From IMG/VR virus record IMGVR_UViG_3300036781_000119, positions 7,315 through 71,314 of that record: 64,000 bases of DNA; one strand, written 5' to 3'. This document shows positions 23,368-64,000 of the stretch, in pieces. This DNA comes from a virus. Under the pieces are notes generated by a model, which had not been told where the DNA came from, ran no database searches, and was given only the letters and a program-made list of their open reading frames with translations. Both the position numbers and the translations under genes were made by a program. Every line of letters begins with the position of its first letter. Position 1 is the first letter of the stretch.

Positions 23368-23724
23368 CTACTTGGTGGGGATCAGCGCGACCATGGCGGC
23401 CAGCGCGGCGGCAGCCTGGGCATAGGTGGTCTGGCCGGCTCGGTATTGCGTGAGCGCGGCATGGGCCACGGTGTCGGCCGCGCCGATCTTCGCCGCCACG
23501 CCGCGATCGCGGCACAGGCCGGTCGGCTGGGGGCACAGCGGCAGATGGACATAGATCGTCGCCGCCGTCTCGGCCGCCTTCAGGCCGCCGGTGAGCGCGT
23601 CCACCGTGTCGGCTGACGGGCTGGCCGTGGCAGCAGCAGGGGTCGCCGTGGCGGAGGTGTCCTTGACGCCACCGCAGGCCGCGAGCGGCAGCAGCAGGGC
23701 GAAGGCGAGGGTGAGGCGCTTCAT
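23368..23724 (-). CDS. Lipoprotein (spanin candidate)
   Basis: MKRLTLAFALLLPLAA|C lipobox; internal Cys pair. Confidence 0.8.
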   Translation of the reverse strand: MKRLTLAFALLLPLAACGGVKDTSATATPAAATASPSADTVDALTGGLKAAETAATIYVHLPLCPQPTGLCRDRGVAAKIGAADTVAHAALTQYRAGQTTYAQAAAALAAMVALIPTK

Positions 23725-25633: not shown

Positions 25634-28159
25634 CTACCACTGGATGAACAGCGATGCCTGCCGGGTGATTCCCCTGCCCGATCCGGTTTCCCAGGTGATC
25701 GCCGTAACGTAGGTGCGCCCGAGCGTGCCGCCTGTCAGCTTCATCTGGATGCGCGGGCCTGGGTCGATCGCGGGTATGCCGGGCGGCACCATGACGCGCC
25801 GATCGCCGGTATCGACCGCCACGCTGTTGGGCACCACCGCAAGGGGATTGGTGTCACCAGCGAAGGCCGACAGGATCGCCACCGAAGGGTTCACCACGGT
25901 GTCGTCGGGCGGCAGCCATAGCGCCAAGCTGAGCCAGTAATCGTCCGTATCCGTGCCGGCGGCGGGCGACCAGCTTTGCGGCGGGGTGGGGGGCATGTCA
26001 TCCTCGTCAGGGGGGAGCAGAATGGCCCGCACGTCGCGGGGTAGGGATAGGAAGCGGCCCGGCCGGGCGGTGCTGGGCGCAACGTAACTGATGCCGGACA
26101 GGGTGCCATGGCCGCTGGCGGCGCCTTGGGTGGAAGCGGTTGCCGTGCCGGCGCCAGTGAGCGCGCCTGCCCCCGCTGCGGTGCCCACAGCCGACGCCTG
26201 GGCTATGCCTGCGCCGGCCAGCGCGCCCGAGCCGGCAGCCGCGCCCGTCGCATTGACCACGCCGCCAGCGAAGCCAGTCAAGGCACCCGTGCCGGCCGCA
26301 GCACCCGCCGCTGCGGCGACGCCCGCGCCAGCACCCAGGAGAGCCCCGGCGCCGGCCGCAGCGCCCATACCAGCCGCCTGGGCACCACCGACGCCCGCCA
26401 GCACCCCGGCGCCAGATGCGACGCCAGCAGATGCCACGACGGCCGCCCCCGCGCCGGCCAACGCACCCACTCCTGCGGCTGCGCCAGCGGTGGCCTTCTG
26501 CGCCGTGCCCGCGCCAGTAAGCGTCCCGGTCCCGGAAGCGGCACCCACCGCGTCGCTGGTAGAGCTCGGGATCAGGATGACGCTCGCGCCCTGCGCTACG
26601 AAATTCGGCGAGGTGTTCGGCAGCCCGTTGATGTTGACCGGGGTCAGGCCCGACCATGTGACCGGCGGGAAGGTCGCATCGGGCGACAGCGCGTAATAGG
26701 TGCCATCGCCGAAGCTGTAATCCAGGTGGATCATCCATCGGCCATCGGCCCGCTGAACGACGTTGATGCCCTCGTTATCGCCGCCCCAGCCGAACGCGCC
26801 GCCGACGTTGGTCTGAATGCGGGTATAGCCGGAGAACGGACTACTGCTGGCCCATAGATCAATATACCAGGGGTTGCCGCCGACCGCGTTGGTGTTCCAG
26901 ATATAATAAGTGGAACCGACCTTCTGCATGAAGGCGTCGTATACTTTGTTCGGAAGCGAGGTTCCGGTGATCTGCACCGGATTGCTCCAAGTAGTCCACC
27001 CGGCATTGGTCGGGTGCATTTCGTAAGGCGCCATCGTGGCCCAATTATCATTGGATATGCACACGATGATGTGGATCGACCCATCGCTGTCCATGAAGAA
27101 CTGCGGGCCAAAGGTTCGGGCGTTGCTGCCGACCCCGGAGGCCGACGAACAGTCGGGGCTGGCGACGTAGCGCGCCGTCACGCCATCGGCGTCAAGCTTG
27201 TATAGATCCCAGGTGCTTTCGACGCCGCCATTGACGTTGATGCAGGCCGACCAAAAGGTGCCGTTCTGCGCCGTCTCCAGCGAGTTATTAACGAAGTAGA
27301 TGCCGGGGTCGTGGATGATATGGCCGCCGGGGGTGCCGATCGTGTTGACGGGCCGGAACTGGAAATTGATCCCGGTCGTGTCGGTGCCGTTGAACAGGTA
27401 GAGCTGGAACAGCGACGCCGGCGAGGATTCCGGCCCCCGGAAGGCCGACATCAGGTATTGCCCCGGCGTGTTCAATGCCGGCAGCGCCCCCTGGAGGAAC
27501 GGCGGATCGGCCACATAGGTCGGCGATCCAGAGGTCGTTTGCGTGTAGCCGTTCGGGCCAAGGTCGTTGCTGTTGCTGGTCAGCGGCAGATATTCGACCA
27601 GGGCAGTCGGAGAAGCCCGGCTGATGGCGCCGGGCAGCCCGCCCGCCGCGAGATATAGAACCTCAGCATCAAACAGCGTGGTGCGCCCTGTCCAGACGCC
27701 GAGTTGCGAGAACTGACCTCCCGGGGAGACCGTGCCAAAGGCCCCGTAAGGATCCTCCATGATTGATATAGGGGCGCTGCCTGAAGCGGGAGCGCCGCCG
27801 GCCACGCTGTTCTGCCTGACCCCGTCGAGATAGGAATAATAATTCGTCCCGTCGAACCCGAACACGAAGCTATGGAAATTGGTCGTGCCATATCCAGACG
27901 CAGGAAAAGCGGCCGGAAAGATATACCCGCCGCCGCCGTTTAGGATGGTGAAGCTCGCCTTCGCTCCCGCGCCATCATCCCAGGTCATACGGACCCGGTA
28001 GGTGGCGGCCAAATTCTCCCAGGAAAACAGGGCAGAGTCCGGCGCTCCACCCGGATTGTGGGTGGCCTTATAGAGCAACGAGACGAAGAATGCGCCGGTG
28101 GGGCCGGTGATGGTCGGACTGGCAATGCGATCGGATGACGTGTTGGACTGGACAGCCAT
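25634..28159 (-). CDS. Modular virion-associated glycosidase: LamG + GH43-like propeller + Gly/Ala repeats + fibre-adaptor-like domain
   Basis: HSFVFGFDGT..YLDG LamG; HDPGI, FGPQFF, YDAFM and NEGIN propeller motifs; DDYWLSLALWL..DTV...LTGGTLG..Y C-terminus. Confidence 0.7.
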   Translation of the reverse strand: MAVQSNTSSDRIASPTITGPTGAFFVSLLYKATHNPGGAPDSALFSWENLAATYRVRMTWDDGAGAKASFTILNGGGGYIFPAAFPASGYGTTNFHSFVFGFDGTNYYSYLDGVRQNSVAGGAPASGSAPISIMEDPYGAFGTVSPGGQFSQLGVWTGRTTLFDAEVLYLAAGGLPGAISRASPTALVEYLPLTSNSNDLGPNGYTQTTSGSPTYVADPPFLQGALPALNTPGQYLMSAFRGPESSPASLFQLYLFNGTDTTGINFQFRPVNTIGTPGGHIIHDPGIYFVNNSLETAQNGTFWSACINVNGGVESTWDLYKLDADGVTARYVASPDCSSASGVGSNARTFGPQFFMDSDGSIHIIVCISNDNWATMAPYEMHPTNAGWTTWSNPVQITGTSLPNKVYDAFMQKVGSTYYIWNTNAVGGNPWYIDLWASSSPFSGYTRIQTNVGGAFGWGGDNEGINVVQRADGRWMIHLDYSFGDGTYYALSPDATFPPVTWSGLTPVNINGLPNTSPNFVAQGASVILIPSSTSDAVGAASGTGTLTGAGTAQKATAGAAAGVGALAGAGAAVVASAGVASGAGVLAGVGGAQAAGMGAAAGAGALLGAGAGVAAAAGAAAGTGALTGFAGGVVNATGAAAGSGALAGAGIAQASAVGTAAGAGALTGAGTATASTQGAASGHGTLSGISYVAPSTARPGRFLSLPRDVRAILLPPDEDDMPPTPPQSWSPAAGTDTDDYWLSLALWLPPDDTVVNPSVAILSAFAGDTNPLAVVPNSVAVDTGDRRVMVPPGIPAIDPGPRIQMKLTGGTLGRTYVTAITWETGSGRGITRQASLFIQW
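26085..26560 (-). repeat. Coding Gly/Ala repeats (~21-aa period, GxAAGxGALxGxG)
   Basis: About 7-8 degenerate units visible in the translation. Confidence 0.75.
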
Positions 28160-28573: not shown

Positions 28574-29002
28574 TCAGTCCAGCGTGGCGGCCGTGGCGGT
28601 GGTGAGAACGGGGGTGATGCCGTTGCCCAGGGTGATGTTCGGTGTCAGCGTGCCCGAGAACAGGATGGGGGTCGCGCCGCCGCCCGTCTTGCCGAACGAC
28701 AGATAAGTGGCGGTGCCGCTGCCGCCGGTGCCGGCCGGGAAGCTGATCGGAGAAACCGGGCTGACGCTGTTGGCCGCGACGGTCCAGCCGCCCGACGTGC
28801 GCGCCACGTTCACCCGGGCATAGGAGGTGTATGCAACCTCACTGGTGGACATATCGCCCGCCTCGCCCGGATCGGCGGTGTGCAGCGCGCAGGCGATGGA
28901 GGACTCGGGCGAGCTCGTCGCGTTGATGGCGTAATTCGCCCATGTCGTGGCGTTGAAGATCAGTTGCAGGAGCGCGTTTTCGGTAGCGTTGCTCAGGCTC
29001 AT
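28574..29002 (-). CDS. Small virion/fibre-associated structural protein
   Basis: ENALLQLIFN...ALHTADPGE...EVAYTSYARV motif common in phage tail modules. Confidence 0.8.
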   Translation of the reverse strand: MSLSNATENALLQLIFNATTWANYAINATSSPESSIACALHTADPGEAGDMSTSEVAYTSYARVNVARTSGGWTVAANSVSPVSPISFPAGTGGSGTATYLSFGKTGGGATPILFSGTLTPNITLGNGITPVLTTATAATLD

Positions 29003-29083: not shown

Positions 29084-30190
29084 TTAGAGCATCCCTGCGA
29101 CGCCAAGCCCGGCTGGGTTGGGTGCCGGCAGCGCCTGGATCGTGTAGGTGATGATGGCGATGCCCTGGGCGCCGTTGCCGCCATTGCCGCCTGCCGTGCC
29201 GGCCGATCCACCGCCGCCGCCGCCAGCTCCGCCGCCGCCATACAGGCCGCCAGCGCCGCCTATGCCGCCGGTTGATGCTGCGCCGGCCGACCCGCCGCCA
29301 CCGCCGCCGCCGCCGCCTCCGCCAGCGCCCGCGACGGCACCGTTGGAGGTCTGCGTGTAGTCGGCCCCCGCCCCGCCGGTCCCGCCCAGGTTGCCGTTGC
29401 CGGTTACGAGGTTCTCGCCGCCGCCACCACCGCCCAGCGTGCCCGCGCCACCGCTGGCGAGACCACCGCCAGCCCCGGCCGCATTATTGCCGCCCGCGCC
29501 GCCTAGCACGCCCACCGGCGTGGATCCGGTCGCCCCATTGGTCCCGGATGCCCCGCCGCCCGAACCGCCGCCGCCGGCCGCGCCGGTGGCGCTTGTGACC
29601 GAAGCCCCGCCGGTCCCGCCTGCGCCGCGCAAGCCGGCCGCTCCGCCCCCACCAGGGCCGCCATGCAGGGACGCGGCACCGCCTGTCGCGCCGCCCGTGC
29701 CGCCATCAGCTTTGGTCGAGCCCACCGATGCGCTGGCCAGCCCGCCAGCCGCGCCCGTGGTAGTCGTAGCCCCCGCGCCTGCCTTGGCAAGCGCGCCATC
29801 AGCAACCGTGACCGGGGCGCTGTTCGCCGCCACGGCCAGCCATGTGTCGGCACCGTTGCCGCCGCTGGTGTTCGCCGAAGCGCCGCCAGTGCCGCCGGTG
29901 CCGATGCTCAGAAACACGATCTGGTTGAGGGTCAGCGTCGCATCAGCCTGGGTGATCTGCGCGAAGGCCGCGCCGCCGCCGGCGCCCGCGCTGTTCGGGT
30001 TGCCGCCGCGCCGCCCGCCGCCGCCGCCGCCGATCGTGGCCACGGTCCATGGCGCGCCGAAGTCAGCCGGCAGGGAAAGCGTCGATGCGCCCGTGGTGGT
30101 GACGAAGATGGTCCGAGTCTGCGCGGCCGCGCCGTGCGCGCCGAACAGCAGCGCGGAGGCGAGAAGCCCCCGGATCAGGTTTCGGATCAT
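29084..30190 (-). CDS. Glycine-rich (polyglycine-II-type) adhesin with signal peptide
   Basis: ATGA-coupled start MIRNLIRGLLASALLFGAHGAAA|Q; IGGGGGG...GAQGIAIITY. Confidence 0.8.
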   Translation of the reverse strand: MIRNLIRGLLASALLFGAHGAAAQTRTIFVTTTGASTLSLPADFGAPWTVATIGGGGGGRRGGNPNSAGAGGGAAFAQITQADATLTLNQIVFLSIGTGGTGGASANTSGGNGADTWLAVAANSAPVTVADGALAKAGAGATTTTGAAGGLASASVGSTKADGGTGGATGGAASLHGGPGGGGAAGLRGAGGTGGASVTSATGAAGGGGSGGGASGTNGATGSTPVGVLGGAGGNNAAGAGGGLASGGAGTLGGGGGGENLVTGNGNLGGTGGAGADYTQTSNGAVAGAGGGGGGGGGGGSAGAASTGGIGGAGGLYGGGGAGGGGGGSAGTAGGNGGNGAQGIAIITYTIQALPAPNPAGLGVAGML

Positions 30191-31110
30191 TTGTAATGCA
30201 CGTTCACGATGTAGGCGCTGGCCGCAGGTGCGGTGGTGTCGTTGTCGGCGATGCCGGTGGTGACGACATAGGTTATTCCGGTCGAATAGGCGACGCCCAG
30301 GGGCAGCTGGAAAGCCAGCCCGGTGCCGGCGGTGTTGGCCGGGATCATAAACCGGGCCAGGGGCGTGCCCGAGCCCGCAGTGGCAGAGGTCGCATTGTAG
30401 ACCTTGATGTAGGCGATGGTGGCCGAGTTGTTGAAGGCGGTGATGCCGTAGAGCGTGCCGGCCGAGCCCTTCACCACGATGGCGGTGGTGTTGTTCGGGA
30501 TCAGCGTGGACGAGACGCTTGCGGCGGTCGTCACGTCGGTGACGTTGAAGGCATCCGTGCCGGTGGCGACGATGTGCGCGCCCCGCGCCGTGGCCTGCGA
30601 TTCGACAATCTGGCCCGTGGTCACCGTGGGCTGGGTGGTATTGAAAACCGCGCCGGTCTGGACCGGGAAGCCGGATTTCGCCGAGCCCGACGCGATCGAT
30701 CCCACCACCTTGACGCCGAGGTTGCTGCCCGGGAAGCGATACCAGCCCGAACCGCTCCAAACCCAAGAGCCCATCGCGCCCATGTTGGCGCCGGTCACGT
30801 TGTCGGCGAGATTCGACGCGCTGAACTGCGCCACCATGTTGGTGCCATCGGACAGGCCGATCGCGGTTCCCGTCGTCGGGAAGGCCGCGCCATACGTGGA
30901 GCTCGTGCCGCCCCCTCCGCCCCCGCCTCCGCCGGTGGTTGCCAGGGGCGTGGTGGCATCGCAGGGCAGGTAGAGCGACCCGGCGGTGCGGCACAGCAGC
31001 ACGACGCCCGAGGCGGTTTGCGACCGATTCCCCGAGTTGGCGAATTCCTCCGCCTGCGCCGGGAGCGCCAGCAGCAGCGCAAGGAAGGCGAGGCGGATCA
31101 TTTTCGTCAT
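30187..31110 (-). CDS. Virion-associated beta protein with signal peptide
   Basis: ATGA-coupled start MTKMIRLAFLALLLALPAQA|E; C-terminal VKGSAGTLYG...YIKVYNAT domain. Confidence 0.8.
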   Translation of the reverse strand: MTKMIRLAFLALLLALPAQAEEFANSGNRSQTASGVVLLCRTAGSLYLPCDATTPLATTGGGGGGGGGTSSTYGAAFPTTGTAIGLSDGTNMVAQFSASNLADNVTGANMGAMGSWVWSGSGWYRFPGSNLGVKVVGSIASGSAKSGFPVQTGAVFNTTQPTVTTGQIVESQATARGAHIVATGTDAFNVTDVTTAASVSSTLIPNNTTAIVVKGSAGTLYGITAFNNSATIAYIKVYNATSATAGSGTPLARFMIPANTAGTGLAFQLPLGVAYSTGITYVVTTGIADNDTTAPAASAYIVNVHYK

Positions 31111-34100
31111 GGTATGTAGGTTCCCCAAAGGTCGAGCTGGCATGTGACAGGCGTGCCTTGCGCCACGGACAAGCTGAAATACAGCGTTGTGTTCGTGTAG
31201 GCCGACTGGGCGCTGCTGGTCGCCCCCGCGAGGCGCCACGCGGAGTTCGCCGTATTGTTGAGGCTGGTGAAGGCTGCATTTGTCGATACGACCGAGCCGC
31301 CCTTCGCTGTGGCGGTATAGATGCCGCCGGATGCGGTGCTGCCCAGGCCCGAGCACTTGGTCAGGCTGGCCACCTGAAGCGATGCGGTGGTGGCCGTGCT
31401 TCCGAGCAGATAGCGGCCCGCCGGCAGCGTGATGGCCTGATCCGATCCGGCACCCGAAGTCGCTGCGTTCAGGTCCACCGTGGTGGTGGCGATGATGCCG
31501 TAGACGCCCGGCGGAGTGGCAGAAGGCCACGCACTGATCGGCGCGCGCTTCCACGCATTGGTGCCCGTGCACAGATAGAAATAGCTCGCGTCATAGCTGG
31601 CCGTGCCGGTCGAGCACGTATCGGTGGGCGTGCTGGGAACCGTGCCCGGCGCCAGCCGCAAGCCGCCCGCGAGGTAAAGCTTCTGCGGAACCGTGCGCTC
31701 GCCGGTCGGGATGCCGGTGGTGCGCAGCGGCGACGACAGGATGGCCGCCACGCTGGGGGTGACGCCCGACCAATCGAGCGTGTTGTCGAAGTCGTTCACC
31801 GTAAGCACGGGCTCGATGAGCGAGTCCACCACCATGCTTTCGCCGACCACGGGCGTGTAGGTGAAGCTGGCCGACGATCCCTGGAGCGCGGCCACCGTCG
31901 CCGTGCGGGTGCTGCCGACATAGCCGACGATCGTCCGCGCTTCGGTGAAGCTGGTAGTCATCGCCCGCGAGCCGAGCGCCAGGGTGGGCGGGTTCAGGAC
32001 CGAGTAGGTGCCGACGCCCCCGGTGGTGCCCGTCAGCTGCGCGACGATCTTCTGCCCGCCCTTCACGCCGCTACCGGCCAGCACGGCGCCGGGCACAAGC
32101 CGGCCTGGGGTGACGCCATCCATCGCCGTGACGGTCAGCACCCCGCCCGTGTTGAGGGAGGCGGTGAACTTGGCGGGGATCTGAGCTACCAGCGCGCCGC
32201 CATTGTATTTGCTGTTCGTCGCCGAGCCGTTCAGCAGCACCACCGCCGAGGTGGTCGAGCCGGTGTCCGCGCTGGAGTTGAGGCGGTTGTCGGTGCGCGT
32301 GCCGGTGACGAGGTGGCCTGACGCGCCGAAGCCGTTCTCGATGCCGATATAGACATTGTAGCCGGCCTGCACGTTGATGCCGGTGCCCAGCGACGATCCG
32401 TGGATGCCCACCGCGCCCACGGAGATATTGCTGGGGCGCGATGCCCTGCTGGTGCCGTAGATGCCCAGGCCGCTGCCGCCCTGCTGCACCGCGACCAACC
32501 ACAATTGGCCGATGAAAACGCCGGCGATGTCGTCGGTGTCGCCGGGCGACCCGATCATCACGAGATCTCCGACGCCCGCCACGCCCTGCTGTTTCTGTCC
32601 GCGCTCGACGCGCAGGTAGTCCATGATCATGGCCTTGGAACTGCTGACCTGATAGCCGTGGCTGGTCAGCGCGAAGCCTGGGCCGAAGGGGAAGACAATG
32701 TTCCCGTTGTTCACCTGGAGGTTGTTCGTCTTGGCGTTCAGGCCGACCGCATCGAACCACATGGCCGGGCGGCCAGGGATCGGGCCGGTGCCGGCAGTGC
32801 CGCACGAGGTGCAGCGGTAGTCGTTGATCAGGCTCTCGCGCAGGTAGGCGCCGGACGAATTCAGGATGGCGCCGGTGTGGATCAGCGACCCGATGTCGTT
32901 GCCGCTGATGCCGTTGAACAGCATCCCGCCTGCGAGGTCGTAGACCACGAAGCCATCGGGGATGTTGGTCGCGTTGCGGTTGCCGAACAGGGAAATGCCC
33001 TGCGCGCCCGCGCCCAGCGGGTTGGCCGAGAAGATCGTCGTTGGGCCGGCGGGGCTGATGACGCCCGAGGCGCCGAGGCCCGGCGCATAGCCGAAGATGT
33101 GCGCCCCGGTGTAGCCCTGGGTGACCGTGATCTGTGTCTGGCTGCGCCCGTCGCCCAGCAGCATCACCGGCTTGGTCATCACCGGGAGGCCGGTGCCGGT
33201 GATGCCGTAATTGCCCGAGGGGATGCGGATGATCGACCGCTTGCCCGCCGTCTGGAGCGCATTCGCCTGATTGATCGCCCGGGTGAAGGCCGCGTTGTCG
33301 TTGCTGAAATAGACGAAGCGGCCAGCCTTGGCGTAGGTGACATCCAAGGTCGCGCCGCACGCACCGGAAGGCGTGGCGCAATCGGTGGCGGTCGGATCGG
33401 TCGGGGTCACCGTGTAGGAGCCGGTGACGCTGGAATCCACCTGCCGCGCGTCCAGCCGGGCAATCGCCAGGATTATGCCGGTGGCGCCGTTGTCTGCCGT
33501 GACCGGCTCGGATGCGAGGTTGGAGGGCGCGACGGTGTAGAGCCCCCCGTTGAACAGATCCACGCTGACCAGCGCCCCGCCGCTGAACACGGCGGAGGCG
33601 ATGAAGCGCATGCCCGATCCGGTCGTGCCGCGCAGGAAGGTGGCGCCGTCCACGCCGCCCGTGCCGGGGTTGACGACGGTCAGGGCGGGGGTGGTGGCGG
33701 TGTTCGGCGCGACAGCGACAGCAGCGACAGCGAAGCACCCTTGGACGGTGTAGGTGCCACCGGCAATGCACACGGTATCGCCGACCGCATAGTTGCCGGT
33801 GGTGCCGCCTACCTCGACATCGGCGCCGATATTGTAGCTCGTGCCGTTCGTGCTGGCGGTGGCGTTGCCCGATAGATCGACGCAAGAGGTGCTGACCCAG
33901 GCGGTGATCGTGCCCAGGAATGGCGTGCCGCCCAGCCCCAGCATGTCGTTGACTTCGATGGTCTTGCCCGCATCGGCCGGGCCGAAGTTCGCCGATGCGC
34001 TGCACAGGCGGTTTGTGCCGGATGTGATCACGCCATCGGCCTGCGCGATCGCGTCCCGCTTGGCGCCCAGGTCGATCACATTCAGCACGTAGTCGGGGCC

Positions 34101-35567
34101 GATCGTGCCGTCGCCGCTGCCCGTGGTCGATGCCGTCGAGCGGTTCGTCGTGCCGTCCACGTAGAGATTGACGGCAAACGAGGTCGGCCCCGAAACCCGG
34201 CTGGCGATGACCTTGAACACCAGCCGATCGGTGACGCCCATCGCCGCGCCGGCGGTGACGTTGCTGTAGACCGGCAGCACGGCCGGGGCAGTGCCGTTCA
34301 GGGTGGAGGGCAGCGACGTGGCGAGCACGGTTTCGGTGCCGTCGCCCTCGCGCTTGCGGGTTTCGACCACGATGCTGGCGACGCCCGCGCCATCGCTGAC
34401 CGTGGCGTAGAGCTGGTGCACCGGAACGCCGGGCGGATAGGCGTTTGCCCCAGGATCGCCGGGGGCGGTGACGAAGTTGGCGACGGTGAAGGGGCCGGTG
34501 CCGGTCAGCGTGGCCGACAGGGCGGTTTCCGACAGGCCGCTGGCGGCCCGGCTGGCGGTCAGATAGGTGGCGATGCCCGAGGCATCAGGCGCGGCCGACA
34601 GGTAGAGCGTGGTTTCGGGCGGTCCAGTGAGCCCGTAGGCGCTGGACAGGTGCACGCCGCGCCCAGGCGGGCCGCCTATGGCCGTGCTGGAGCCCACGGC
34701 GGCGCTGGCGCCCGGGTTGGCCAGCAGCGTGCCCGCGCTCAGCTGCGGCGCCGCAGCCTGCAAGGCCGCCATCGTCGCCAGCTGGGTGGTGTTCGTGCCA
34801 ACCGAGGCGGTGGGCGCCGTGGGAATGCCCGTGAAGTGGGGCGAGTTCAGCGGCGCGCCGCCGCCCCCGCCGCCGCCATTGGCCAGCACGAAGGCGGTGG
34901 TGGCGATCTGGTCGGTATCCGTGCCCGGATCGGCAGTCGGCGCGGTGGGGACTCCAGTGAGCCCAGGCGAGGCAAGCGGTGCATATCCGGCACCGGCCAC
35001 GAAAGCGGTGGTCGCCAGCTGCGTCGTGTTCGTGCCCGGGGCGGCGGTCGGCGCGGTGGGGGTGCCGCTGAAGGCCGGGCTGTCGATTGGCGCGAAGCCG
35101 GCCACGACATAGCCGGTGACGAAGGCCGTGGTGGCGATTTGCGCGGTGCTGGTGCCCGGCGCAGCCGTGGGGGCGGTAGGCGTGCCGGTAAAGGCTGGGT
35201 CGGCCTTGGGCGCAAAGCTGGTGGCCACGAAGTTGGTGGTGGCGACGGCATTGCTGTTTGTGCCCACAGCCACGGTCGGGCCGGTCAGCGTGCCGGTGAA
35301 GGTGCCCGTCAGGAAGGTGGCCGACGTGCCGGCCAGTGCCCCCGTCAGCGTGCCGCCGGTCAGCGACAGATGCAGCGCGCCGGACGCGGTGATCTGCCCG
35401 ATGATGTAGGTGTTGCTGTTGTTCAGGTCCGCCGCCGCGAGGCAGCCCGGGTGGAACACCCCGCCGGTAAAGTTCGGCTGCGAGCACGCGACGGGAATCG
35501 ACTGCGCGGCCGCCGGCGCCGCGAGACCGATCAGCGCGGCAGCGGCGAGGATCAGGCGGCGGATCAT
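31107..35567 (-). CDS. Large tail fibre/tailspike (fibre repeats + pectate-lyase-like beta-helix) with signal peptide
   Basis: MIRRLILAAAALIGLAAPAAA|Q; SPAFTGTPTAPT repeats; NVIDLGAKRD...NDNAAFTRAI...IPSGNY; YLCTGTNAWKR. Confidence 0.85.
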   Translation of the reverse strand: MIRRLILAAAALIGLAAPAAAQSIPVACSQPNFTGGVFHPGCLAAADLNNSNTYIIGQITASGALHLSLTGGTLTGALAGTSATFLTGTFTGTLTGPTVAVGTNSNAVATTNFVATSFAPKADPAFTGTPTAPTAAPGTSTAQIATTAFVTGYVVAGFAPIDSPAFSGTPTAPTAAPGTNTTQLATTAFVAGAGYAPLASPGLTGVPTAPTADPGTDTDQIATTAFVLANGGGGGGGAPLNSPHFTGIPTAPTASVGTNTTQLATMAALQAAAPQLSAGTLLANPGASAAVGSSTAIGGPPGRGVHLSSAYGLTGPPETTLYLSAAPDASGIATYLTASRAASGLSETALSATLTGTGPFTVANFVTAPGDPGANAYPPGVPVHQLYATVSDGAGVASIVVETRKREGDGTETVLATSLPSTLNGTAPAVLPVYSNVTAGAAMGVTDRLVFKVIASRVSGPTSFAVNLYVDGTTNRSTASTTGSGDGTIGPDYVLNVIDLGAKRDAIAQADGVITSGTNRLCSASANFGPADAGKTIEVNDMLGLGGTPFLGTITAWVSTSCVDLSGNATASTNGTSYNIGADVEVGGTTGNYAVGDTVCIAGGTYTVQGCFAVAAVAVAPNTATTPALTVVNPGTGGVDGATFLRGTTGSGMRFIASAVFSGGALVSVDLFNGGLYTVAPSNLASEPVTADNGATGIILAIARLDARQVDSSVTGSYTVTPTDPTATDCATPSGACGATLDVTYAKAGRFVYFSNDNAAFTRAINQANALQTAGKRSIIRIPSGNYGITGTGLPVMTKPVMLLGDGRSQTQITVTQGYTGAHIFGYAPGLGASGVISPAGPTTIFSANPLGAGAQGISLFGNRNATNIPDGFVVYDLAGGMLFNGISGNDIGSLIHTGAILNSSGAYLRESLINDYRCTSCGTAGTGPIPGRPAMWFDAVGLNAKTNNLQVNNGNIVFPFGPGFALTSHGYQVSSSKAMIMDYLRVERGQKQQGVAGVGDLVMIGSPGDTDDIAGVFIGQLWLVAVQQGGSGLGIYGTSRASRPSNISVGAVGIHGSSLGTGINVQAGYNVYIGIENGFGASGHLVTGTRTDNRLNSSADTGSTTSAVVLLNGSATNSKYNGGALVAQIPAKFTASLNTGGVLTVTAMDGVTPGRLVPGAVLAGSGVKGGQKIVAQLTGTTGGVGTYSVLNPPTLALGSRAMTTSFTEARTIVGYVGSTRTATVAALQGSSASFTYTPVVGESMVVDSLIEPVLTVNDFDNTLDWSGVTPSVAAILSSPLRTTGIPTGERTVPQKLYLAGGLRLAPGTVPSTPTDTCSTGTASYDASYFYLCTGTNAWKRAPISAWPSATPPGVYGIIATTTVDLNAATSGAGSDQAITLPAGRYLLGSTATTASLQVASLTKCSGLGSTASGGIYTATAKGGSVVSTNAAFTSLNNTANSAWRLAGATSSAQSAYTNTTLYFSLSVAQGTPVTCQLDLWGTYIP
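34765..35285 (-). repeat. Tail-fibre repeats (APxxSPxFTGxPTAPTAxxGTNTTQxATTAFV), 4 full and 1 partial
   Basis: Seen in the translation; P2 gpH-type fibre repeat. Confidence 0.85.
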
Positions 35568-36628
35568 GTGGAGTATCCTTCGATGATGATGCGCCCAGGA
35601 CGGCCGGCGCCGCCCGCGAGCGCGCCCGTGTTCTCGTAGGCGATAGAGCCCGAGCCCCCGGAGCCCGCCCCGGTGGCCGCCACGCCCGCGCCGATATCAA
35701 CCGATGATCCGCCAGCGCCCCACATGCTGTCCGCCCCCTTGCCCGAGTAGCCGCCGACCGTGAGGCCAAGCACGACGCCCACCAGCCCGGCATTTCCGGG
35801 GGACAGCATCAGGACGGTAGCCCCCGAGGTCGTGGGCGCGCCGCCGCCACCGCCGGCCGCGCCGTTGCGCGGCGGGGCCGTCAGCAAGCCCACGCTGCCG
35901 CCTTGTCCGCCCAGGCATACAAGGTTGCTGCCGAAGCTCGTATTGCCGCCGTTGCCGCCCACAAGGCCGGTGGCCGGCGTGCCGGCCGCGCCGATGGTGA
36001 TGGTCGTGCCGTTGAAGTTGCCGACCAGGATGATTTCGCCGATCGAACCCGAGCCCGCACCGCCGCCCACCGCCACCTGCCCCGATCCGGTCACCGGGGT
36101 GCCGCCGCCCGCGCCGCCGCCGGCGATCCCACGGATGCGCAGCATGTTCACCCCGAAGGCTTGGGTGTAGGCGATTGAGCCGGGCGTGCCGAAGGATTGC
36201 ACGTCGATCAGCCGCCCCTGGGTCAGATTGAACCAGTTGGTGGGGGTGACATCAGGATCGGCCGCGTTGGCGTCCACCTTCGACAGCCACATGCGCCCGA
36301 GCACGCCGCTTTGCAGCAGCGCATATTGCGGATATCCGCCTATCGACGTGCTGAAGGTGCCATCGCGGAAGATCGGCCCGCCCGCCTTCTGCCACTGTGC
36401 CCATGCGGAAAGCTCATAGAGGATGCCGTTCACGTCCTGGCCGAATGGGGGCACGCCGCCGCCGGCCAGCGGGATCCAGTTGAGCGGCGGAAAACCCGTC
36501 TCCAGGCTGGCCGCGCCGTCGATGATCCCGACCTGAGACGCTTCAGGAATCGGCCGAATGTAGGTGCCCGGCGTGGCATTCTCGCCGAACTTGATGGGAA
36601 AGGATGCGGGGACGTCACCAGAGTCCAT
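35564..36628 (-). CDS. Tail fibre (baseplate-anchored, Gly-rich C-terminus)
   Basis: GAASLETGFPP...GGVPPFGQDVNGIL...IGGYP anchor domain; follows the DUF2612-like gene. Confidence 0.85.
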   Translation of the reverse strand: MDSGDVPASFPIKFGENATPGTYIRPIPEASQVGIIDGAASLETGFPPLNWIPLAGGGVPPFGQDVNGILYELSAWAQWQKAGGPIFRDGTFSTSIGGYPQYALLQSGVLGRMWLSKVDANAADPDVTPTNWFNLTQGRLIDVQSFGTPGSIAYTQAFGVNMLRIRGIAGGGAGGGTPVTGSGQVAVGGGAGSGSIGEIILVGNFNGTTITIGAAGTPATGLVGGNGGNTSFGSNLVCLGGQGGSVGLLTAPPRNGAAGGGGGAPTTSGATVLMLSPGNAGLVGVVLGLTVGGYSGKGADSMWGAGGSSVDIGAGVAATGAGSGGSGSIAYENTGALAGGAGRPGRIIIEGYST

Positions 36629-37197
36629 CAGATTATCTCCACAGTGGACGAGACGCCCGCCGGGCGAGGAAGCACGCCCGAGTTGACGACAATCGAAACT
36701 TCAACCGGGGTGAGGTCGAATTCGAAGTGATAGGTCATGGTCATGTCGTGATTGTCTTTGACGTAGCAGATGCCGCGATCTGGAAAGAGCGTGTTCAGGA
36801 CTGTATTTATGGCCGGCACCGAACAGTCGCAGATATTGGCCAGCGCCTTTGCTATGATCAGCACACGATAGCCGGAATCGGACAGCGCGTAGTTTGCCGT
36901 GGCGCTACCGCCGCCGAAGAATGGCGCCTGATTGAAGCCCATCAGCGACGGGTCGGCGGCTTCCTCGAAACCGAGATATTCGCCCGATGCGATCGACAGC
37001 ACCCGGCCGACGCCGACGATGCGGCCCCACACGTCGAGCCCGAACCCCTGCGCGGTCTGGAGGTTCATAACGAGGTCGAAGAATGCGTCGATGTTCACCT
37101 TGGGGTCGATGTGGTCATTCAGGTTGGCCACCAGCTGCCGCAGCGACGGGCTGTTGGCGTATTGGCTGATGACGGTCTGTTCCGGGTTCTGCATCAC
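36628..37197 (-). CDS. Baseplate protein (DUF2612-like)
   Basis: ISQYANSP...[16 protein letters not shown]. Confidence 0.9.
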
Positions 37198-38618
37198 TCA
37201 ATCACCAGCGACACGTCGAGCGGCGAGACGGTCGGCACCTGATCAATGCGGGTCACCACCACGTCGAGCGACGTATAGGCGGTGATGGCTGTGCTGCCCG
37301 CCGTCTGGCTGGGCTGGATCGTGTAGGTGCCGATGCCCCCAACCGTGCCGCCGGTCTGAAGGGTGATGATGGTGCCCGGCAGAATTCCCGTGCCGCTGAT
37401 AGGCTGCCCCGGGGCCAGCGCACCCGACGACACCGCGCTCACGGTCAGCACCGTGCCAGATATGGAGCCGGTGACCACCGCATTGACCGAATTGCCGCTC
37501 AGGTGGACCGACAAAATCTGCGCCCAGGGACCAAGCGCCAGGATGGGGGCGTAGAAGCGCGAGGCATAGATCGGGAAGCCGATTTGCGCACGCGGGCCGC
37601 CGTCGCCGCCGGCAAAGGCATTGACGATCGCCGCCTGGATCAGCGCCGCCGCATTCGACGGGATGCCGGCATTGTTGCGCAGCCGCACGACAAAGCGCAC
37701 CGTCAGCGGCGTGGGCCGCGTGAAGGTCACGCTGTAGGGCACGCCCGGCAGCGGGTAGCTCGGGCTGGTATCGTAGACCGTAACCGTCGTGTTGCCCTGG
37801 TAGGCGGAGCCGGGGGGCTTCTTGCGCCAGATCGCCGATGCCACATCGAAATCGGTGCCGCCGGACGCCGCCACGAAGATGCTCTTGGGGTCGAGGGTGA
37901 CGCCGCCGGTCACCAGCGGCGAGGCCGTGGGGTTCTCGGTGGTGTAGGCGTCGAGCACGTTGTCTACGGCCAGCACTTCACCTTGGATCGCGCCGAGTAT
38001 GCCCACCGCGTTTTTCGCCACCGATAGGGTGCGGCGGTTTTCGAAGTCGTTCCGGTTCTCCACGACATTGCCCAGCACGCCGTCGAGCGGGTTGGTGATC
38101 GTGTCCCACCCGGCCTGCTGCTGATAGATGCGGGTCAGGGAGCCGGCCGGGCAGGCGATCGGCCCGGTTTCCGTGCACGCGAAATCGAGCGTGATGGTGC
38201 CGGCGCCGCCGATCGTGCCGCCATTGGTCGCCGCGAACAGATCGCCCTGGGTGGACTGCGCCAGCGCACCGGGCGCGATGATGGTCCCGTTCAGCCCGCT
38301 GCACAGCCCCTGCACGACGGTGGGCTCGGCCGGGTTGCGGTAGATGAAGTAGATTTCTGCCAGCGCGTCCTGGTAGCGGCCCTCACTCGTGGCCGGATCG
38401 AACATATTGGTCAGGTAGACAAACTGGTCATTCTTGCGGCCGATGATCACCGCTTCGCTGGTGGCCAGCTGGCCCTGGGGCGTGTCCAGCGCGGGGTTCA
38501 TATCCCCGCCCATGGCTGCATTCCAATCCGCCTGCACGCCCGCGAGGATTTCCGGTTCGCTGGGTGCCACGAAGCCCAGGGGGCCAAACTGCGGCTCGGG
38601 AACGCTGCTGCCGCTCAT
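37194..38618 (-). CDS. Baseplate J-like wedge protein
   Basis: [41 protein letters not shown]. Confidence 0.9.
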
Positions 38619-39026: not shown

Positions 39027-39667
39027 CAGGTGCCTCCGGTCGGCGGGTTGACGGGCACCTCGGCGTCGCCGTGGCCATCGTTGCCCTGGGTATGCGTGTG
39101 GGTGGCCACGCCCACCTGTCCGCCGGTGCCATAGCGCGCATAGATGTCGCCGGTCACCCGCATTTCGCCCGTGAGCTCGGCCACCGGCGCCTCGATGCGC
39201 ACCTTGGTGGGGCTGTGCAGCACGATGCCGCCGGGGGTGAAGTGGACATACTGCGTCGGGGCGCCACCCTGCCACACGCCGAAATAGATGGCGTCCTGCA
39301 TGTCGTTCCTGCGCCGCGTGCCGGGGTTCGCCTGCTCGCCGCCAGCGGCCTTCACCGCCGATATGTCGCGATCGCAGAACACCAGCAGCCCCTTGTCGCC
39401 CACCTGGGGGTCGATGATCACCGCGTTGGCGCCGCCCTGGAGCCGGAAATACGGCACGTCCTGGATCTCGCCATGGGGCACGGCCGTGCCGGTGGCGTCC
39501 AGCTGGTTGACGGTCGGGTGCACGGCCACCCTGCCCACGGGGCCGACGCCGCCGCCGGCCACCTTGGTGACGACGCACAGGGTGGCAGAGTTCGCCCGCG
39601 CCAGCACTTCCTGCATGGCCGCCTGCTGGTCGGCCCAGGCGTCCATCTGCTCGCCGAAGGCTGGCAT
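39026..39667 (-). CDS. Baseplate spike (Gp138-like)
   Basis: VPYFRLQGG...IDPQVGDKGL.VFCDRDIS; HTH Fe-binding tip (THTHTQ). Confidence 0.88.
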   Translation of the reverse strand: MPAFGEQMDAWADQQAAMQEVLARANSATLCVVTKVAGGGVGPVGRVAVHPTVNQLDATGTAVPHGEIQDVPYFRLQGGANAVIIDPQVGDKGLLVFCDRDISAVKAAGGEQANPGTRRRNDMQDAIYFGVWQGGAPTQYVHFTPGGIVLHSPTKVRIEAPVAELTGEMRVTGDIYARYGTGGQVGVATHTHTQGNDGHGDAEVPVNPPTGGT

Positions 39668-46561: not shown

Positions 46562-47143
46562 GTGAAGGTCTGCAAGGACTGCCGGGAGACGAAAGAGGCG
46601 ACCCACTTTTCCTCGCACCCGTCCACCAAGGACAGGCTGGCAATCGCCTGCAAGCCATGCCAGCGCGCCCGCAGCGCGGCTTGGTATCAGAAGAACCGAG
46701 AGCGGGTTCTTGAGCGCACGGCGCAATGGGGTCGCGATAATATCGAAAAGCGGCGTGAAATCGGGCGAAAGAGCAACCGGGCTACAATTTCCACCAGAAG
46801 GGCTTGGTATACCGCGAACCCCGACAAGGTGCGCGCGATCGCCCGCGTGACGCGCGCCAAGAATATCGAAAAATGTCGCGCGCGGGTCCGCGTCAACACC
46901 AAGCGGTATCGGGCTCAGCGGCTGCGCAAGCCGGCCAGATGGGCGTGCCTGAAAGCTATCGCAGCGATATATGCGCAAGCCGCCGCCCGATCGCTTGAGA
47001 CGGGAATCCCCCACGACGTTGATCATATCGTCCCGGTGCGCGGCAAAGGCGTTTGCGGTCTGCACTGCGAAAGCAACCTCCAAATTCTTCCCGCTTCCGA
47101 AAATCGGGTTAAGGGCAACCGATTCTGGCCGGATATGTTTTAA
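46562..47143 (+). CDS. HNH homing endonuclease, antisense insertion
   Basis: CKDC...CKPC N-terminus; HDVDHIVP...VCGLHCESNLQIL...N..KGN. Confidence 0.9.
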   Translation: MKVCKDCRETKEATHFSSHPSTKDRLAIACKPCQRARSAAWYQKNRERVLERTAQWGRDNIEKRREIGRKSNRATISTRRAWYTANPDKVRAIARVTRAKNIEKCRARVRVNTKRYRAQRLRKPARWACLKAIAAIYAQAAARSLETGIPHDVDHIVPVRGKGVCGLHCESNLQILPASENRVKGNRFWPDMF

Positions 47144-49650: not shown

Positions 49651-49665
49651 CCCACCCCGCCCAGC

Positions 49666-51339: not shown

Positions 51340-51350
51340 GATTTCGCTCC

Positions 51351-63900: not shown

Positions 63901-64000
63901 CGGAGAGCGGGGCAAGTTCGTCGGAATCCTTTGCTTTCCACTCGGGGCCACCAAAGCGCGTCAGCCAGTGGATCAGGCATGACGTGGAGCCGGGTGCATT

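What the first reader, a model, noticed from the sequence alone, without database searches (positions are those of the whole stretch)
29084..35567. Three consecutive tailspike/adhesin genes with Sec-type signal peptides and paired cysteines: possible periplasm-matured virion appendages
Seen: all three ATGA-coupled genes after the canonical tail fibre begin with a basic-hydrophobic-AxA leader: MIRRLILAAAALIGLAAPAAA|Q, MTKMIRLAFLALLLALPAQA|E and MIRNLIRGLLASALLFGAHGAAA|Q. The coupling supports these starts. The 1486-aa protein has phage fibre repeats and a tailspike beta-helix, and its 14 Cys fall into 7 sequential pairs; the 307-aa protein has one pair. Established: tailed-phage virion proteins fold and assemble in the cytoplasm and normally lack signal peptides, and disulfides form in the periplasm. 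Inference: these proteins are exported, oxidised by Dsb and attached to particles only at lysis, or they are secreted to mask receptors or degrade capsule. Either would be an unusual assembly route.
Basis: partly seen in the sequence, partly recalled or inferred. Interest (0 to 1): 0.85.

Follow-up and report, generated by a model that had tools for sequence, protein, structure and literature searches.

The report
Exported, disulfide-bonded phage fibre-like proteins
Three consecutive tail-fibre-like genes of a complete myovirus genome carry genuine-looking secretion leaders, and related leader-bearing, cysteine-paired fibre and spike genes recur in many uncultivated phages, so some phages appear to fold receptor-binding-type proteins outside the cytoplasm.

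Summary
Three ATGA-coupled minus-strand genes (31107-35567, 30187-31110, 29084-30190) follow the tail-fibre gene of a complete 71.3-kb myovirus. Each begins with a basic / hydrophobic / AxA leader.

Comparative data support export and oxidation:
- Orthologues keep the leaders.
- The C-terminal jelly-roll domain of the 307-aa protein defines a large unnamed family: 11,032 representative clusters, with no Pfam, NCBIfam or PDB-sequence match.
- Among 142 family members, leader presence tracks a cysteine pair at two fixed columns (72 with both, 54 with neither).
- Mature cysteine counts are even in 74 of 76 leader-bearing members. 37 of 66 leaderless members have no cysteine.
- In three other complete phage genomes, 19 of 19 proteins in leader runs have even, non-zero cysteine counts.

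Leader-bearing spike, jelly-roll and glycine-rich genes occur together in runs in diverse phages. In one podovirus such a gene fills the tailspike slot.

The fate of the proteins is unresolved. I estimate about 0.42 that they are appendages joining the particle at lysis, and about 0.33 that they are free exported accessory proteins, for which XepA of PBSX is a precedent. The beta-helix claim is only weakly supported. Four searches of the held paper library listed nothing on such proteins.

The parts
35564..36628 (-). Canonical leaderless tail fibre (354 aa). It is the upstream neighbour, and its stop codon overlaps the P0001 start (ATGA).
   Evidence: PHROG tail-fibre families: phrog_12796 at 1.4e-40 for residues 1-132; phrog_863 and phrog_6202 for residues 125-353. 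Weak Gly_rich_2 match, 16.7 bits, below the cut-off of 24.3. Junction read.
31107..35567 (-). P0001, 1486 aa: leader, fibre-repeat shaft, middle region, beta-helix-like region, C-terminal domain. 14 Cys.
35505..35567 (-). P0001 leader, residues 1-21, predicted cleavage AAA|Q.
   Evidence: Read. Conserved in orthologue P0129 (MIRRFILALGALLLSSAAQA|Q). P0125 also starts with a leader.
34758..35270 (-). P0001 phage tail-fibre repeats (SPxFTGxPTAPTAxxGTNTTQLATTAFV type), residues about 100-270.
   Evidence: PHROG tail-fibre families, each with 3-4 matched stretches. Aligns to an internal part (residues 552-842) of the 1586-aa Ralstonia phage phiRSL1 protein P0164.
32298..33422 (-). P0001 beta-helix-like region, residues about 716-1090 (weak support).
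   Evidence: PF12708 at 20.1 bits, below the cut-off of 27. 25% identity to the corresponding region of P0129, which scores 26.2 bits. Low-confidence model and non-significant beta-helix Foldseek rows.
31110..31502 (-). P0001 C-terminal domain, residues 1356-1486, with the conserved Cys1405/Cys1476 pair.
   Evidence: 40% identity to the C-terminus of P0129, with both Cys aligned.
30187..31110 (-). P0002, 307 aa: leader, Cys40/Cys50 loop, poly-Gly, middle region, C-terminal jelly-roll domain.
31051..31110 (-). P0002 leader, residues 1-20, predicted cleavage AQA|E.
   Evidence: Read. Orthologue P0004 has MMRFALTLLMLAASPALA|ED.
30190..30528 (-). P0002 C-terminal beta-sandwich domain, residues 195-307. 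It belongs to a very large unnamed phage family.
   Evidence: pLDDT block means 64-89 for residues 201-307. 11,032 representative clusters at E <= 1e-3. No Pfam, NCBIfam or PDB-sequence match. 52 BFVD viral models at E <= 1e-3.
29084..30190 (-). P0003, 368 aa: leader plus a glycine-rich (Gly_rich_2-type) domain. No Cys.
30122..30190 (-). P0003 leader, residues 1-23, predicted cleavage AAA|Q.
   Evidence: Read. Five of the seven relatives fetched begin directly at the domain without a leader, e.g. 'MAINTVFITTTGAST...' against P0003 '...AAA|QTRTIFVTTTGAST'. Atlas structural alignments start at P0003 residues 21-23 in three of five rows.
28574..29002 (-). Leaderless 142-aa protein downstream, of the Gp80 fibre I type.
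   Evidence: Pfam PF23140 at 41.2 bits, above the cut-off of 27.
25634..28159 (-). Leaderless 841-aa protein downstream, with an Ala/Gly-rich repeat tract and a weak Gp77 fibre-tail-adaptor-like C-terminus.
   Evidence: PF23148 at 19.2 bits, below the cut-off of 27. Sequence read.
23368..23724 (-). The only other leader-bearing gene of the genome: a 118-aa lipoprotein (MKRLTLAFALLLPLAAC...). Its role is unknown; it may belong to the lysis region.
   Evidence: No PHROG match.

Best explanation
Step 1: export and oxidation (probability about 0.85; supported by comparative evidence, not by experiment). The three genes are late genes of a probably virulent myovirus. Their products are taken through the inner membrane by the host Sec system, and the leaders are cut at AxA|Q/E. 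P0001 and P0002 fold in the oxidising periplasm with disulfide bonds.

The three products are:
- P0001: a long fibre or spike, made of shaft repeats, a probable beta-helix and a C-terminal domain.
- P0002: a protein ending in a lectin-like jelly-roll domain.
- P0003: a glycine-rich domain of the kind that forms the distal part of P2-type tail fibres.
The same three kinds of leader-bearing genes occur together in runs in many unrelated uncultivated phages, so they behave as a cassette.

Step 2: fate (inferred; about 0.42 for the whole statement). These proteins are receptor-binding appendages. They wait in the periplasm and meet the otherwise complete particle only when the holin opens the inner membrane. 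This would resemble the last-step attachment of P22 tailspikes or T4 long fibres, but across a compartment boundary.
For: Export and oxidation
- The leaders are textbook in form, and the starts are fixed by ATGA coupling.
- Orthologues keep the leaders while the hydrophobic core diverges faster than the mature N-terminus (P0001/P0129; P0002/P0004; P0125).
- P0002 domain family: of 143 rows, 72 have leader and Cys pair, 54 have neither, 11 have the pair only and 6 have the leader only.
- Mature Cys counts are even in 74 of 76 leader-bearing members and never zero. Among leaderless members, 37 of 66 have none and 14 have one.
- Of 111 further representatives, 99 are leader-like and 97 of those 99 have even counts.
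- P0001, P0125, P0129, P0002 and P0004 have 14, 12, 14, 2 and 4 Cys. The 28/42 and 1405/1476 pairs are conserved between P0001 and P0129.
- In complete phage genomes G002-G004, 19 of 19 leader-run proteins have even, non-zero Cys counts. Leaderless proteins of at least 150 aa split 37 even to 35 odd (72 in all).

Recurring cassette
- 68 of 213 same-strand ORFs within 5 kb of the family gene are leader-like; over all 450 ORFs called in the 20 loci (these 213 included) it is 95.
- Leader plus Gly_rich_2 occurs at L005:12535-13275 (26.2 bits, above the cut-off of 24.3).
- Leader plus beta-helix or endosialidase-like domain plus Peptidase_S74 occurs in L009 and L018.

Appendage role
- The trio lies inside the late structural operon, between the fibre gene and further fibre-type genes, and is translationally coupled.
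- P0001 has full fibre architecture.
- Between sister phages, the N-terminal 171 residues are 63% identical while the beta-helix region is 25% identical, as expected for anchored receptor-binding proteins.
- Leader-bearing and leaderless family members share the same mature N-terminal motif, ADNxxxTxGSG.
- In podovirus G002, the gene after the ejection proteins (the tailspike slot) has tail-protein PHROG hits, a leader and 8 Cys. None of the 9 other structural-region proteins scanned has its best PHROG match to a fibre or spike (one has weak fibre-family rows, E 5e-8 and 6e-5, behind a 2e-24 best match).
- In G003, a 1320-aa leader plus Peptidase_S74 protein follows the structural module.
- In G004, a leader run lies between the head genes and the nozzle gene.
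- G000 has no integrase or rve match, so a lysogenic-conversion role is unlikely.
Against: - No signal-peptide predictor was available. My leader test is a hand-made heuristic with visible false calls (e.g. KSC gp046, P0241), and nothing shows cleavage.
- P0003 has no Cys, so only its leader speaks for export.
- P0002 and P0004 lack the family's usual Cys pair; they carry another pair instead.
- Cys positions are mostly not conserved between P0001 and P0125.

Against the appendage step:
- No cultured phage carries the leader-type proteins, so there are no virion proteomes to consult.
- No precedent for periplasm-matured fibres turned up in four literature searches.
- Mature P0001 starts inside shaft-type repeats that are internal in the phiRSL1 homologue, so no recognisable baseplate-attachment domain is present.
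- Many family members are only a leader plus a 110-aa domain.
- The phage already has a leaderless fibre.
- XepA of PBSX is exported late and is absent from particles (PMC6834076, passages read).
- 'No other fibre in G002/G003' rests on PHROG sensitivity alone.
Confidence: 0.42

Rival explanations
1. Exported, but not virion parts. The three proteins are late accessory proteins that act on the host envelope from the periplasm or after release. They might help lysis or release, as XepA of PBSX is proposed to do. They might cut or bind envelope polysaccharide so that progeny are not trapped, or they might block superinfection.
For: - XepA is a late, exported phage protein built of beta-sandwich (jelly-roll) domains and is not found in mature particles (PMC6834076, passages).
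- One Atlas structural neighbour of the P0002 domain is a cluster named 'XepA domain-containing' (TM 0.89 by query; PF27453 in 11% of members).
- Many family members are only a leader plus the domain, about 140 aa.
- Mature P0001 has no recognisable attachment domain.
- The phage has a leaderless fibre of its own.
- From memory: exported receptor-blocking lipoproteins (Cor, Llp) are encoded beside tail genes.
Against: - There is no sequence link to XepA.
- The trio is not next to a recognised lysis cassette.
- Shaft repeats, a 1486-aa length and, in other phages, Peptidase_S74 chaperone domains are costly for a free enzyme.
- There is no leaderless paralogue of the domain in any of 6 records, which argues against a simple decoy.
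- No similarity was found between P0003's family and the fibre.
- In G002, the tailspike-slot gene itself carries the leader.
Confidence: 0.33
2. The N-terminal segments are uncleaved signal anchors or SAR-like segments. The proteins stay tethered to the inner membrane facing the periplasm and are released when the membrane is depolarised at lysis.
For: - The hydrophobic cores of P0001 (LILAAAALIGLAA) and P0003 (GLLASALLFGA) are rich in Ala, Gly and Ser. SAR domains have that composition (recalled; SAR endolysins are described in PMC6116005, passages).
- The even Cys counts fit any periplasm-facing topology.
Against: - All three have Ala at -3 and -1, and Pro or Gly at -4, which is the signal peptidase I pattern.
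- The core of P0002 is Leu-rich.
- Ala-rich leaders are usual in high-GC hosts (recalled).
- Nothing here tests cleavage.
Confidence: 0.1
3. The proteins are not exported at all. The hydrophobic N-termini are buried structural helices of ordinary cytoplasmic fibres, for example docking or trimerisation segments, and the cysteine pattern is coincidental.
For: - All three N-termini share the opening MIR(x)L, which could suggest a common docking module.
- No experimental data exist.
Against: - The link between leader and Cys pair, and the even Cys counts, hold across hundreds of proteins from phages with 37-68% GC.
- The leader sequences are conserved in character, not in sequence.
- Leaderless relatives begin exactly where the predicted mature proteins begin.
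Confidence: 0.07
4. The trio is bacterial cargo (a moron), such as adhesins used for lysogenic conversion, and is unrelated to the phage's own cycle.
For: - The end of the tail module is a classic moron site (recalled).
- JGI labels one family member 'trimeric autotransporter adhesin' (P0115).
Against: - The genes sit on the same strand as the fibre gene and are ATGA-coupled to it.
- The complete genome has no integrase or rve transposase.
- Atlas neighbours of the P0002 domain are 81-100% viral, and the viral neighbour clusters of P0003 are 67-100% viral, though two of P0003's five structural rows are bacterial clusters.
- Two pattern scans of 185,579 species genomes found no relative.
Confidence: 0.05

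Closest known systems
XepA (PBSX exported protein) and YomS of Bacillus subtilis prophages
   Same: A late phage protein exported beyond the cytoplasmic membrane and built of beta-sandwich (jelly-roll) domains of about 110 aa. It belongs to the prophage lytic cassette (PMC6834076, passages). One Atlas structural neighbour cluster of the P0002 domain bears the XepA name.
   Different: - No sequence similarity.
- XepA is a pentameric dumbbell in a Gram-positive host and is reported absent from particles.
- It has no fibre shaft and no cysteine pattern, and it is not part of a run of leader-bearing spike genes.
- The oligomeric state of P0002 was not tested.
Sec-signal and SAR endolysins (fOg44 Lys44, P1 Lyz)
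   Same: Phage late proteins that use the host Sec system and wait outside the cytoplasm until the holin fires (PMC6116005, passages).
   Different: Those are peptidoglycan hydrolases. The proteins here are fibre-, spike- and lectin-like, and no lytic domain was detected.
Last-step attachment of P22 tailspike and T4 long tail fibres (recalled, not checked in a paper here)
   Same: Receptor-binding proteins fold separately and join an otherwise finished particle. The reaction works by simple mixing.
   Different: Both partners are cytoplasmic, with no leader and no disulfides in the native protein.
P2-type tail fibres with a C-terminal glycine-rich domain (PF12571 + PF21722)
   Same: P0003's fold neighbours and sequence relatives carry PF21722. 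One neighbour cluster combines it with Phage_tail_fib. The window's own fibre has a weak PF21722 match.
   Different: P0003 is the glycine-rich domain alone, behind a leader. P0003 itself has no Pfam match at E <= 0.1, and its family shows no detectable similarity to the neighbouring fibre.
Cor and Llp receptor-blocking lipoproteins of T1/phi80/T5-type phages (recalled)
   Same: Exported phage proteins; Cor is encoded next to tail genes; they act on the phage's own receptor.
   Different: They are small lipoproteins. The three proteins here have no lipobox, are up to 1486 aa long and have fibre architecture.
Signal-peptide genes of unknown function in Porphyromonas gingivalis phages (PMC10367356)
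   Same: Phage genes predicted to use the host general secretion system, with function unknown (passages).
   Different: No link to fibre or spike architecture, gene runs or cysteine pairing is described in the passages I read. Relatedness was not tested.

Membership tests
Sec-type (signal peptidase I) signal peptide | Short, positively charged n-region | tested here: met
   MIRR, MTKMIR, MIRNLIR: two basic residues and no acidic residue in each.
Sec-type (signal peptidase I) signal peptide | Uncharged hydrophobic core of about 7-15 residues | tested here: met
   Best 10-residue Kyte-Doolittle means of 2.72, 3.10 and 2.22. The cores are 10-13 residues long.
Sec-type (signal peptidase I) signal peptide | Small neutral residues at -3 and -1, with a helix breaker before them | tested here: met
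   PAAA|Q, PAQA|E, GAAA|Q. The rule is recalled; no SignalP was on hand.
Sec-type (signal peptidase I) signal peptide | The protein is actually exported and the leader removed | not testable with these tools
   Indirect support only: the leader/Cys covariation and the even Cys counts.
Phage tail fibre | Fibre shaft repeats | tested here: met
   P0001 matches 7 PHROG tail-fibre families, with E from 5.7e-24 to 3.5e-4.
Phage tail fibre | N-terminal domain that attaches to the baseplate or tail | tested here: inconclusive
   Mature P0001 begins in repeats that are internal in P0164. However, the first 171 residues are the best-conserved part against P0129.
Phage tail fibre | Presence in the virion | not testable with these tools
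   There is no cultured relative.
Tailspike / pectate-lyase-like right-handed beta-helix | A family profile match, or a confident beta-helix fold | tested here: inconclusive
   PF12708 at 20.1 bits (P0001) and 26.2 bits (P0129), both below the cut-off of 27. Model pLDDT 43.5. Foldseek best rows at E >= 0.045.
Gly_rich_2 (PF21722), for P0003 | Profile match above the gathering score | tested here: not met
   P0003 has no Pfam match at E <= 0.1. Relatives P0245, P0249, P0250, P0251 and P0254 carry PF21722, and Atlas neighbours carry it in 16-100% of members. P0003 is therefore probably a divergent member, but it is not filed as one.
XepA-like exported lysis-associated proteins | Sequence or profile similarity to XepA/YomS | tested here: not met
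   No PDB-sequence hit with profile A1 at E <= 10. No Pfam hit. Foldseek against the PDB did not list XepA among the rows shown.
XepA-like exported lysis-associated proteins | Pentameric disc assembly | not tested
   No oligomer prediction was run.
Cor/Llp-type exclusion lipoproteins | Lipobox with Cys at +1 | tested here: not met
   No Cys lies at or near the predicted cleavage sites. The only lipobox gene is 23368-23724.
Twin-arginine (Tat) signal | RR motif, a long n-region and a weakly hydrophobic core | tested here: not met
   P0001 has RR, but its n-region is 4 residues and its core is strongly hydrophobic. P0002 and P0003 have no RR. The criteria are recalled.

The most novel reading that the evidence does not exclude
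A widespread but uncultivated set of tailed phages folds its receptor-binding fibres and spikes in the host periplasm. The proteins are Sec-exported and carry disulfide bonds. They are fitted onto cytoplasm-built particles only in the moments between holin firing and cell rupture. That would be a two-compartment assembly route for tailed-phage virions.
Probability: 0.4. Interest if true: 0.9.

Novelty: new variant of a known kind. Interest (0 to 1): 0.72.

Why it matters
Tailed-phage particles are taken to be built wholly in the reducing cytoplasm, and that assumption shapes how receptor-binding proteins are predicted, expressed and engineered.

What this analysis shows:
- A very large, unnamed family of phage proteins exists (about 11,000 clusters at 50% identity).
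- Whole runs of fibre-, spike- and glycine-rich genes carry secretion leaders and paired cysteines.
- In some phages these are the only recognisable receptor-binding candidates.

If they are virion parts, this is a new assembly route. It would also explain why such proteins might misfold when expressed in the cytoplasm.

If they are free exported proteins, they form a large new class of late phage effectors acting on the host envelope.

Either way the question can be tested with simple fusions and non-reducing gels. Annotation pipelines should stop treating leaders on fibre genes as errors.

Tried and rejected
Searches that found nothing or little
- Close relatives in IMG/VR, by single protein: none for P0002 or for baseplate J.
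- Cultured phages, by tblastn: no match for P0001, for P0003 or for a leader-type family member. P0002 matched only the C-terminal 28-32% of proteins in 5 records: Caulobacter phages KSC, Cr30 (two records) and S2B, and virus Rctr197k. The KSC and S2B proteins, the two I translated, have no true leader.
- Bacterial genomes: two pattern scans of genome contigs found no relative. These scans depend on two short patterns each, so they are weak evidence of absence. Leaderless members do occur in Bradyrhizobium elkanii records.

Decoy idea (an exported copy of the virion's own binding domain): rejected for lack of support
- Each of 6 records holds one copy of the jelly-roll domain.
- BLASTP of P0003 against the fibre gave nothing, nor did hhalign of P0003's family against the fibre.

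Fold work
- Only residues 200-307 of P0002 were modelled usefully.
- Foldseek against the PDB gave nothing at E <= 1e-3. The best rows were FlgD, LecB lectins, TNF-like proteins, carbohydrate-binding modules and viral jelly rolls.
- The P0001 C-terminal model was poor.

Other ideas set aside
- Tat export was considered for P0001 and set aside (see the membership test).
- Relatedness of the other loci to this phage: only L025 shares TerL and portal similarity, and the sheath query gave one borderline hit in L017 (4.1e-5). The rest share only the domain.

Literature
- Four searches listed no paper whose title or abstract start concerns Sec-leader tail fibres or spikes; I opened passages of three of the listed papers. 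A fifth search found the XepA paper.
- I read only matched passages of PMC3556154, PMC10367356, PMC6116005 and PMC6834076.
- Supplements were not requested. Supplementary Data 4 of PMC10367356 may list which phage genes carry signal peptides, and I could not see it.

Tools not used: complex prediction, the look-up of sequencing runs, read laying, the listing of cluster members, the RNA tools, and the look-up of encoding contigs (stated closed, not called).

Full report
**Setting.** The window is bases 7315-71314 of a 71,314-base IMG/VR virus record with direct terminal repeats, rated 100% complete. I found an exact 127-base terminal repeat and 67% GC. The minus strand carries one long late operon:
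- large terminase, 62062-63954;
- portal, 58445-62065;
- head morphogenesis protein, 57404-58300;
- protease, 52296-53786;
- major head protein, 50227-52137;
- sheath, 44496-46445;
- tape measure, 40566-42407;
- baseplate hub, 39667-40569;
- baseplate wedge (J-like), 37194-38618;
- a phrog_587 structural protein, 36628-37197;
- a 354-aa tail fibre, 35564-36628.

So the phage is a contractile-tailed phage with a Mu-type head module. No tyrosine integrase and no rve transposase were found in the whole record.

**The observation.** Right after the fibre gene come three genes joined by ATGA overlaps: P0001 (31107-35567, 1486 aa), P0002 (30187-31110, 307 aa) and P0003 (29084-30190, 368 aa).
- Each begins with two basic residues, an uncharged hydrophobic core of 10-13 residues, Pro or Gly at -4, and Ala at -3 and -1. 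This gives predicted mature ends QSIPV, EEFAN and QTRTI.
- Alternative in-frame starts lie 37-50 codons downstream.
- Apart from these three, only a 118-aa lipoprotein (23368-23724) has a convincing leader among about 90 ORFs.
- Three adjacent leader genes among four in 92 arise by chance with p about 0.003.
- P0001 matches seven PHROG tail-fibre families through repeats at residues about 100-270. It has 14 cysteines in seven near-neighbour pairs. P0002 has one pair and P0003 has none.
- The beta-helix is only weakly supported.
- Downstream follow leaderless fibre-type genes: a 142-aa Gp80-type protein (41.2 bits), a 136-aa protein, and an 841-aa protein with a weak Gp77-adaptor-like end.

**Are the leaders real? 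Orthologues.** A sister phage contig of 67,442 bases encodes P0129 and P0004.
- P0129 is 63% identical to P0001 over residues 1-171, including the leader MIRRFILALGALLLSSAAQA|Q and both Cys of the first loop. It is 25% identical over the beta-helix-like part and 40% over the last 130 residues, with both Cys aligned.
- P0004 is 62% identical to P0002 and has the leader MMRFALTLLMLAASPALA|ED.
- P0125 (2074 aa; 42% identity over 80% of P0001) also opens with a leader followed directly by fibre repeats.
- Among the other fibre-repeat proteins found with P0001, leaders are rare: my heuristic flagged 7 of 120 listed, P0001 included and at least one doubtful.

**Are the leaders real? The P0002 domain family.** The last 110 residues of P0002 form a beta-sandwich (pLDDT block means 64-89).
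- The domain has no Pfam, NCBIfam or PDB-sequence match.
- A profile of it finds 11,032 representative clusters at E <= 1e-3 and 5,917 at E <= 1e-10. In all but one of the 150 best rows the domain ends within a few residues of the C-terminus, in proteins of 105-1661 aa.
- Atlas and BFVD neighbours are viral.
- I compared 143 rows: 121 database proteins (one of them P0003, included by mistake), two Caulobacter phage proteins and 20 IMG/VR loci. Leader presence goes with a cysteine pair at two fixed alignment columns: 72 rows have both, 54 have neither, 11 have the pair only and 6 have the leader only.
- Several of the 11 look truncated, wrongly started or missed by the heuristic. The 6 include P0002, P0004, P0005 and P0008, plus two artefacts.
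- After dropping P0003, mature cysteine counts in leader-bearing members are even in 74 of 76 and never zero. Among leaderless members, 37 of 66 have no cysteine and 14 have one.
- In 111 further representatives, 99 are leader-like and 97 of those have even counts. That set leans towards the leader clade, because the profile was built mostly from it.
- Leaderless members begin (MADNIAVTPGSG...) with the motif that follows the cleavage site in leader-bearing ones (...A|ADNAVIVTPGSG...).
- The same holds for P0003. Relatives of about 44% identity start MAINTVFITTTGAST..., while P0003 reads ...AAA|QTRTIFVTTTGAST. Atlas structure alignments start at its residues 21-23 in three of five rows.

This is the pattern expected if a secretion leader was added to proteins that otherwise fold in the cytoplasm, and if the exported forms then acquired disulfides.

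**A recurring cassette.** 21 IMG/VR loci encode the domain; 20 (GC 37-68%) were analysed, L022 being left out of the scripts. In 17 of those 20 my strict leader test flags the family gene (ORFs).
- The gene usually sits in a run of same-strand genes that all open with leaders. 68 of 213 same-strand ORFs within 5 kb are leader-like; over all 450 ORFs called in the 20 loci (these 213 included) it is 95.
- The run members include a leader plus Gly_rich_2 (L005:12535-13275, 26.2 bits, above the cut-off of 24.3). They also include a leader plus beta-helix plus Peptidase_S74 (L009, 817 aa) and a leader plus a weak endosialidase-catalytic match plus Peptidase_S74 (L018, 1320 aa).
- These are the three module types of the window's trio.
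- Apart from L025, these phages share nothing else with the window's phage bar one borderline sheath hit in L017.
- In three complete records (G002, G003, G004), all 19 leader-run proteins have even, non-zero mature cysteine counts of 2-18. Leaderless proteins of at least 150 aa split 37 even (8 of them zero) to 35 odd.

**What are they for?** Two readings remain.

For virion appendages:
- the trio lies inside the structural operon, is translationally coupled, and is flanked by leaderless fibre genes;
- P0001 has full fibre architecture;
- the N-terminus is conserved while the distal part diverges between sister phages;
- G002 is a podovirus with portal, head protein, nozzle (phrog_578) and ejection proteins. 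Its next gene, in the tailspike slot, has tail-protein and tail-collar-fibre PHROG hits, a leader and 8 Cys. None of the nine other structural-region proteins scanned has its best PHROG match to a fibre or spike; the 321-aa adaptor-type protein has weak fibre-family rows (E 5e-8 and 6e-5) behind a 2e-24 best match;
- in G003, the 1320-aa leader plus S74 protein directly follows the structural module;
- in G004, a leader run lies between the head genes and the nozzle gene.

For free exported proteins:
- XepA of PBSX is a late, exported protein built of beta-sandwich domains that is absent from particles (PMC6834076, passages), and one Atlas neighbour cluster bears that name;
- many members are only a leader plus the domain;
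- mature P0001 starts in repeats that are internal in the phiRSL1 protein;
- the phage has its own leaderless fibre.

A simple receptor-masking copy is not supported.

**My commitment.** Export and oxidation: about 0.85. Appendages joined at lysis: about 0.42. Free accessory proteins: about 0.33. Membrane-tethered: about 0.10. Not exported: about 0.07. Cargo: about 0.05.

**Comparison with what is known.** Phage use of the Sec system is known for endolysins (PMC6116005) and for XepA. Signal-peptide genes of unknown function have been noted in Porphyromonas gingivalis phages (PMC10367356). Four searches listed no paper whose title or abstract start concerns leader-bearing fibres or spikes; I opened passages of three listed papers. 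The library lacks most subscription journals, so this is not proof of absence.

**Limits.**
- There was no signal-peptide predictor. My heuristic makes visible errors.
- ORF calling in the loci was crude. Start choice for the 20 locus rows favoured leaders.
- No cultured relative and no expression data exist.

Noticed in passing
window 58445-62065 (-): The 1206-aa portal protein (phrog_146, residues 77-592) carries a C-terminal extension. The extension has weak matches to Alt-like and exoenzyme-type ADP-ribosyltransferases (residues about 1010-1186; E 1.3e-8 and 1.3e-4). It may be a portal-fused enzyme that is injected or packaged.
   Followed up: no
window 25634-28159 (-): The 841-aa leaderless protein contains a tract of about 200 residues made of Ala/Gly-rich near-repeats (GAGALTGAGTA...). 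It ends in a weak Gp77 fibre-tail-adaptor-like segment (19.2 bits). The neighbouring 142-aa protein is Gp80 fibre I-like. These are podophage GP4-type fibre parts in a myovirus.
   Followed up: no
window 44496-46445, 37194-38618 and 47140-47865 (-): The same small domain (phrog_21413) is inserted in three proteins: the sheath (residues 234-297), the baseplate wedge protein (376-453) and a 241-aa protein (65-137). It may be a shared decoration or Ig-like module.
   Followed up: no
window 50227-52137 (-): The major head protein match covers only residues 306-636 of a 636-aa ORF. Either there is a long N-terminal extension (a scaffold-like delta domain) or the listed GTG start is too far upstream.
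   Followed up: no
G004 (L033-L035): record positions 2763-3458 (+), 47827-48189 (-), 49497-49877 (-): Three proteins (231, 120 and 126 aa) of this podovirus open with near-identical twin-arginine-type leaders (..RRKFLVGSLASLFAAPAIVRASSL....RRSLLVGLASSLAAPAIVRTSSL....RRSFITGLGALFIAAPAIVRASSL..). This looks like a phage-encoded family of Tat-leader proteins.
   Followed up: no
L002 (Caulobacter phage KSC) 5521-6306; L004 (phage Cr30) 4389-5300: In cultured Caulobacter phages, the leaderless form of the jelly-roll domain is encoded just upstream of the SAR endolysin and spanin genes (KSC gp046) or of a gene annotated beta-1,4-xylanase (Cr30). This hints at a link with envelope or polysaccharide attack.
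   Followed up: partly
window 23368-23724 (-): A 118-aa lipoprotein (lipobox LAAC) lies about 2 kb downstream of the fibre region. It has no PHROG match. It could be an outer-membrane spanin or an exclusion lipoprotein.
   Followed up: no
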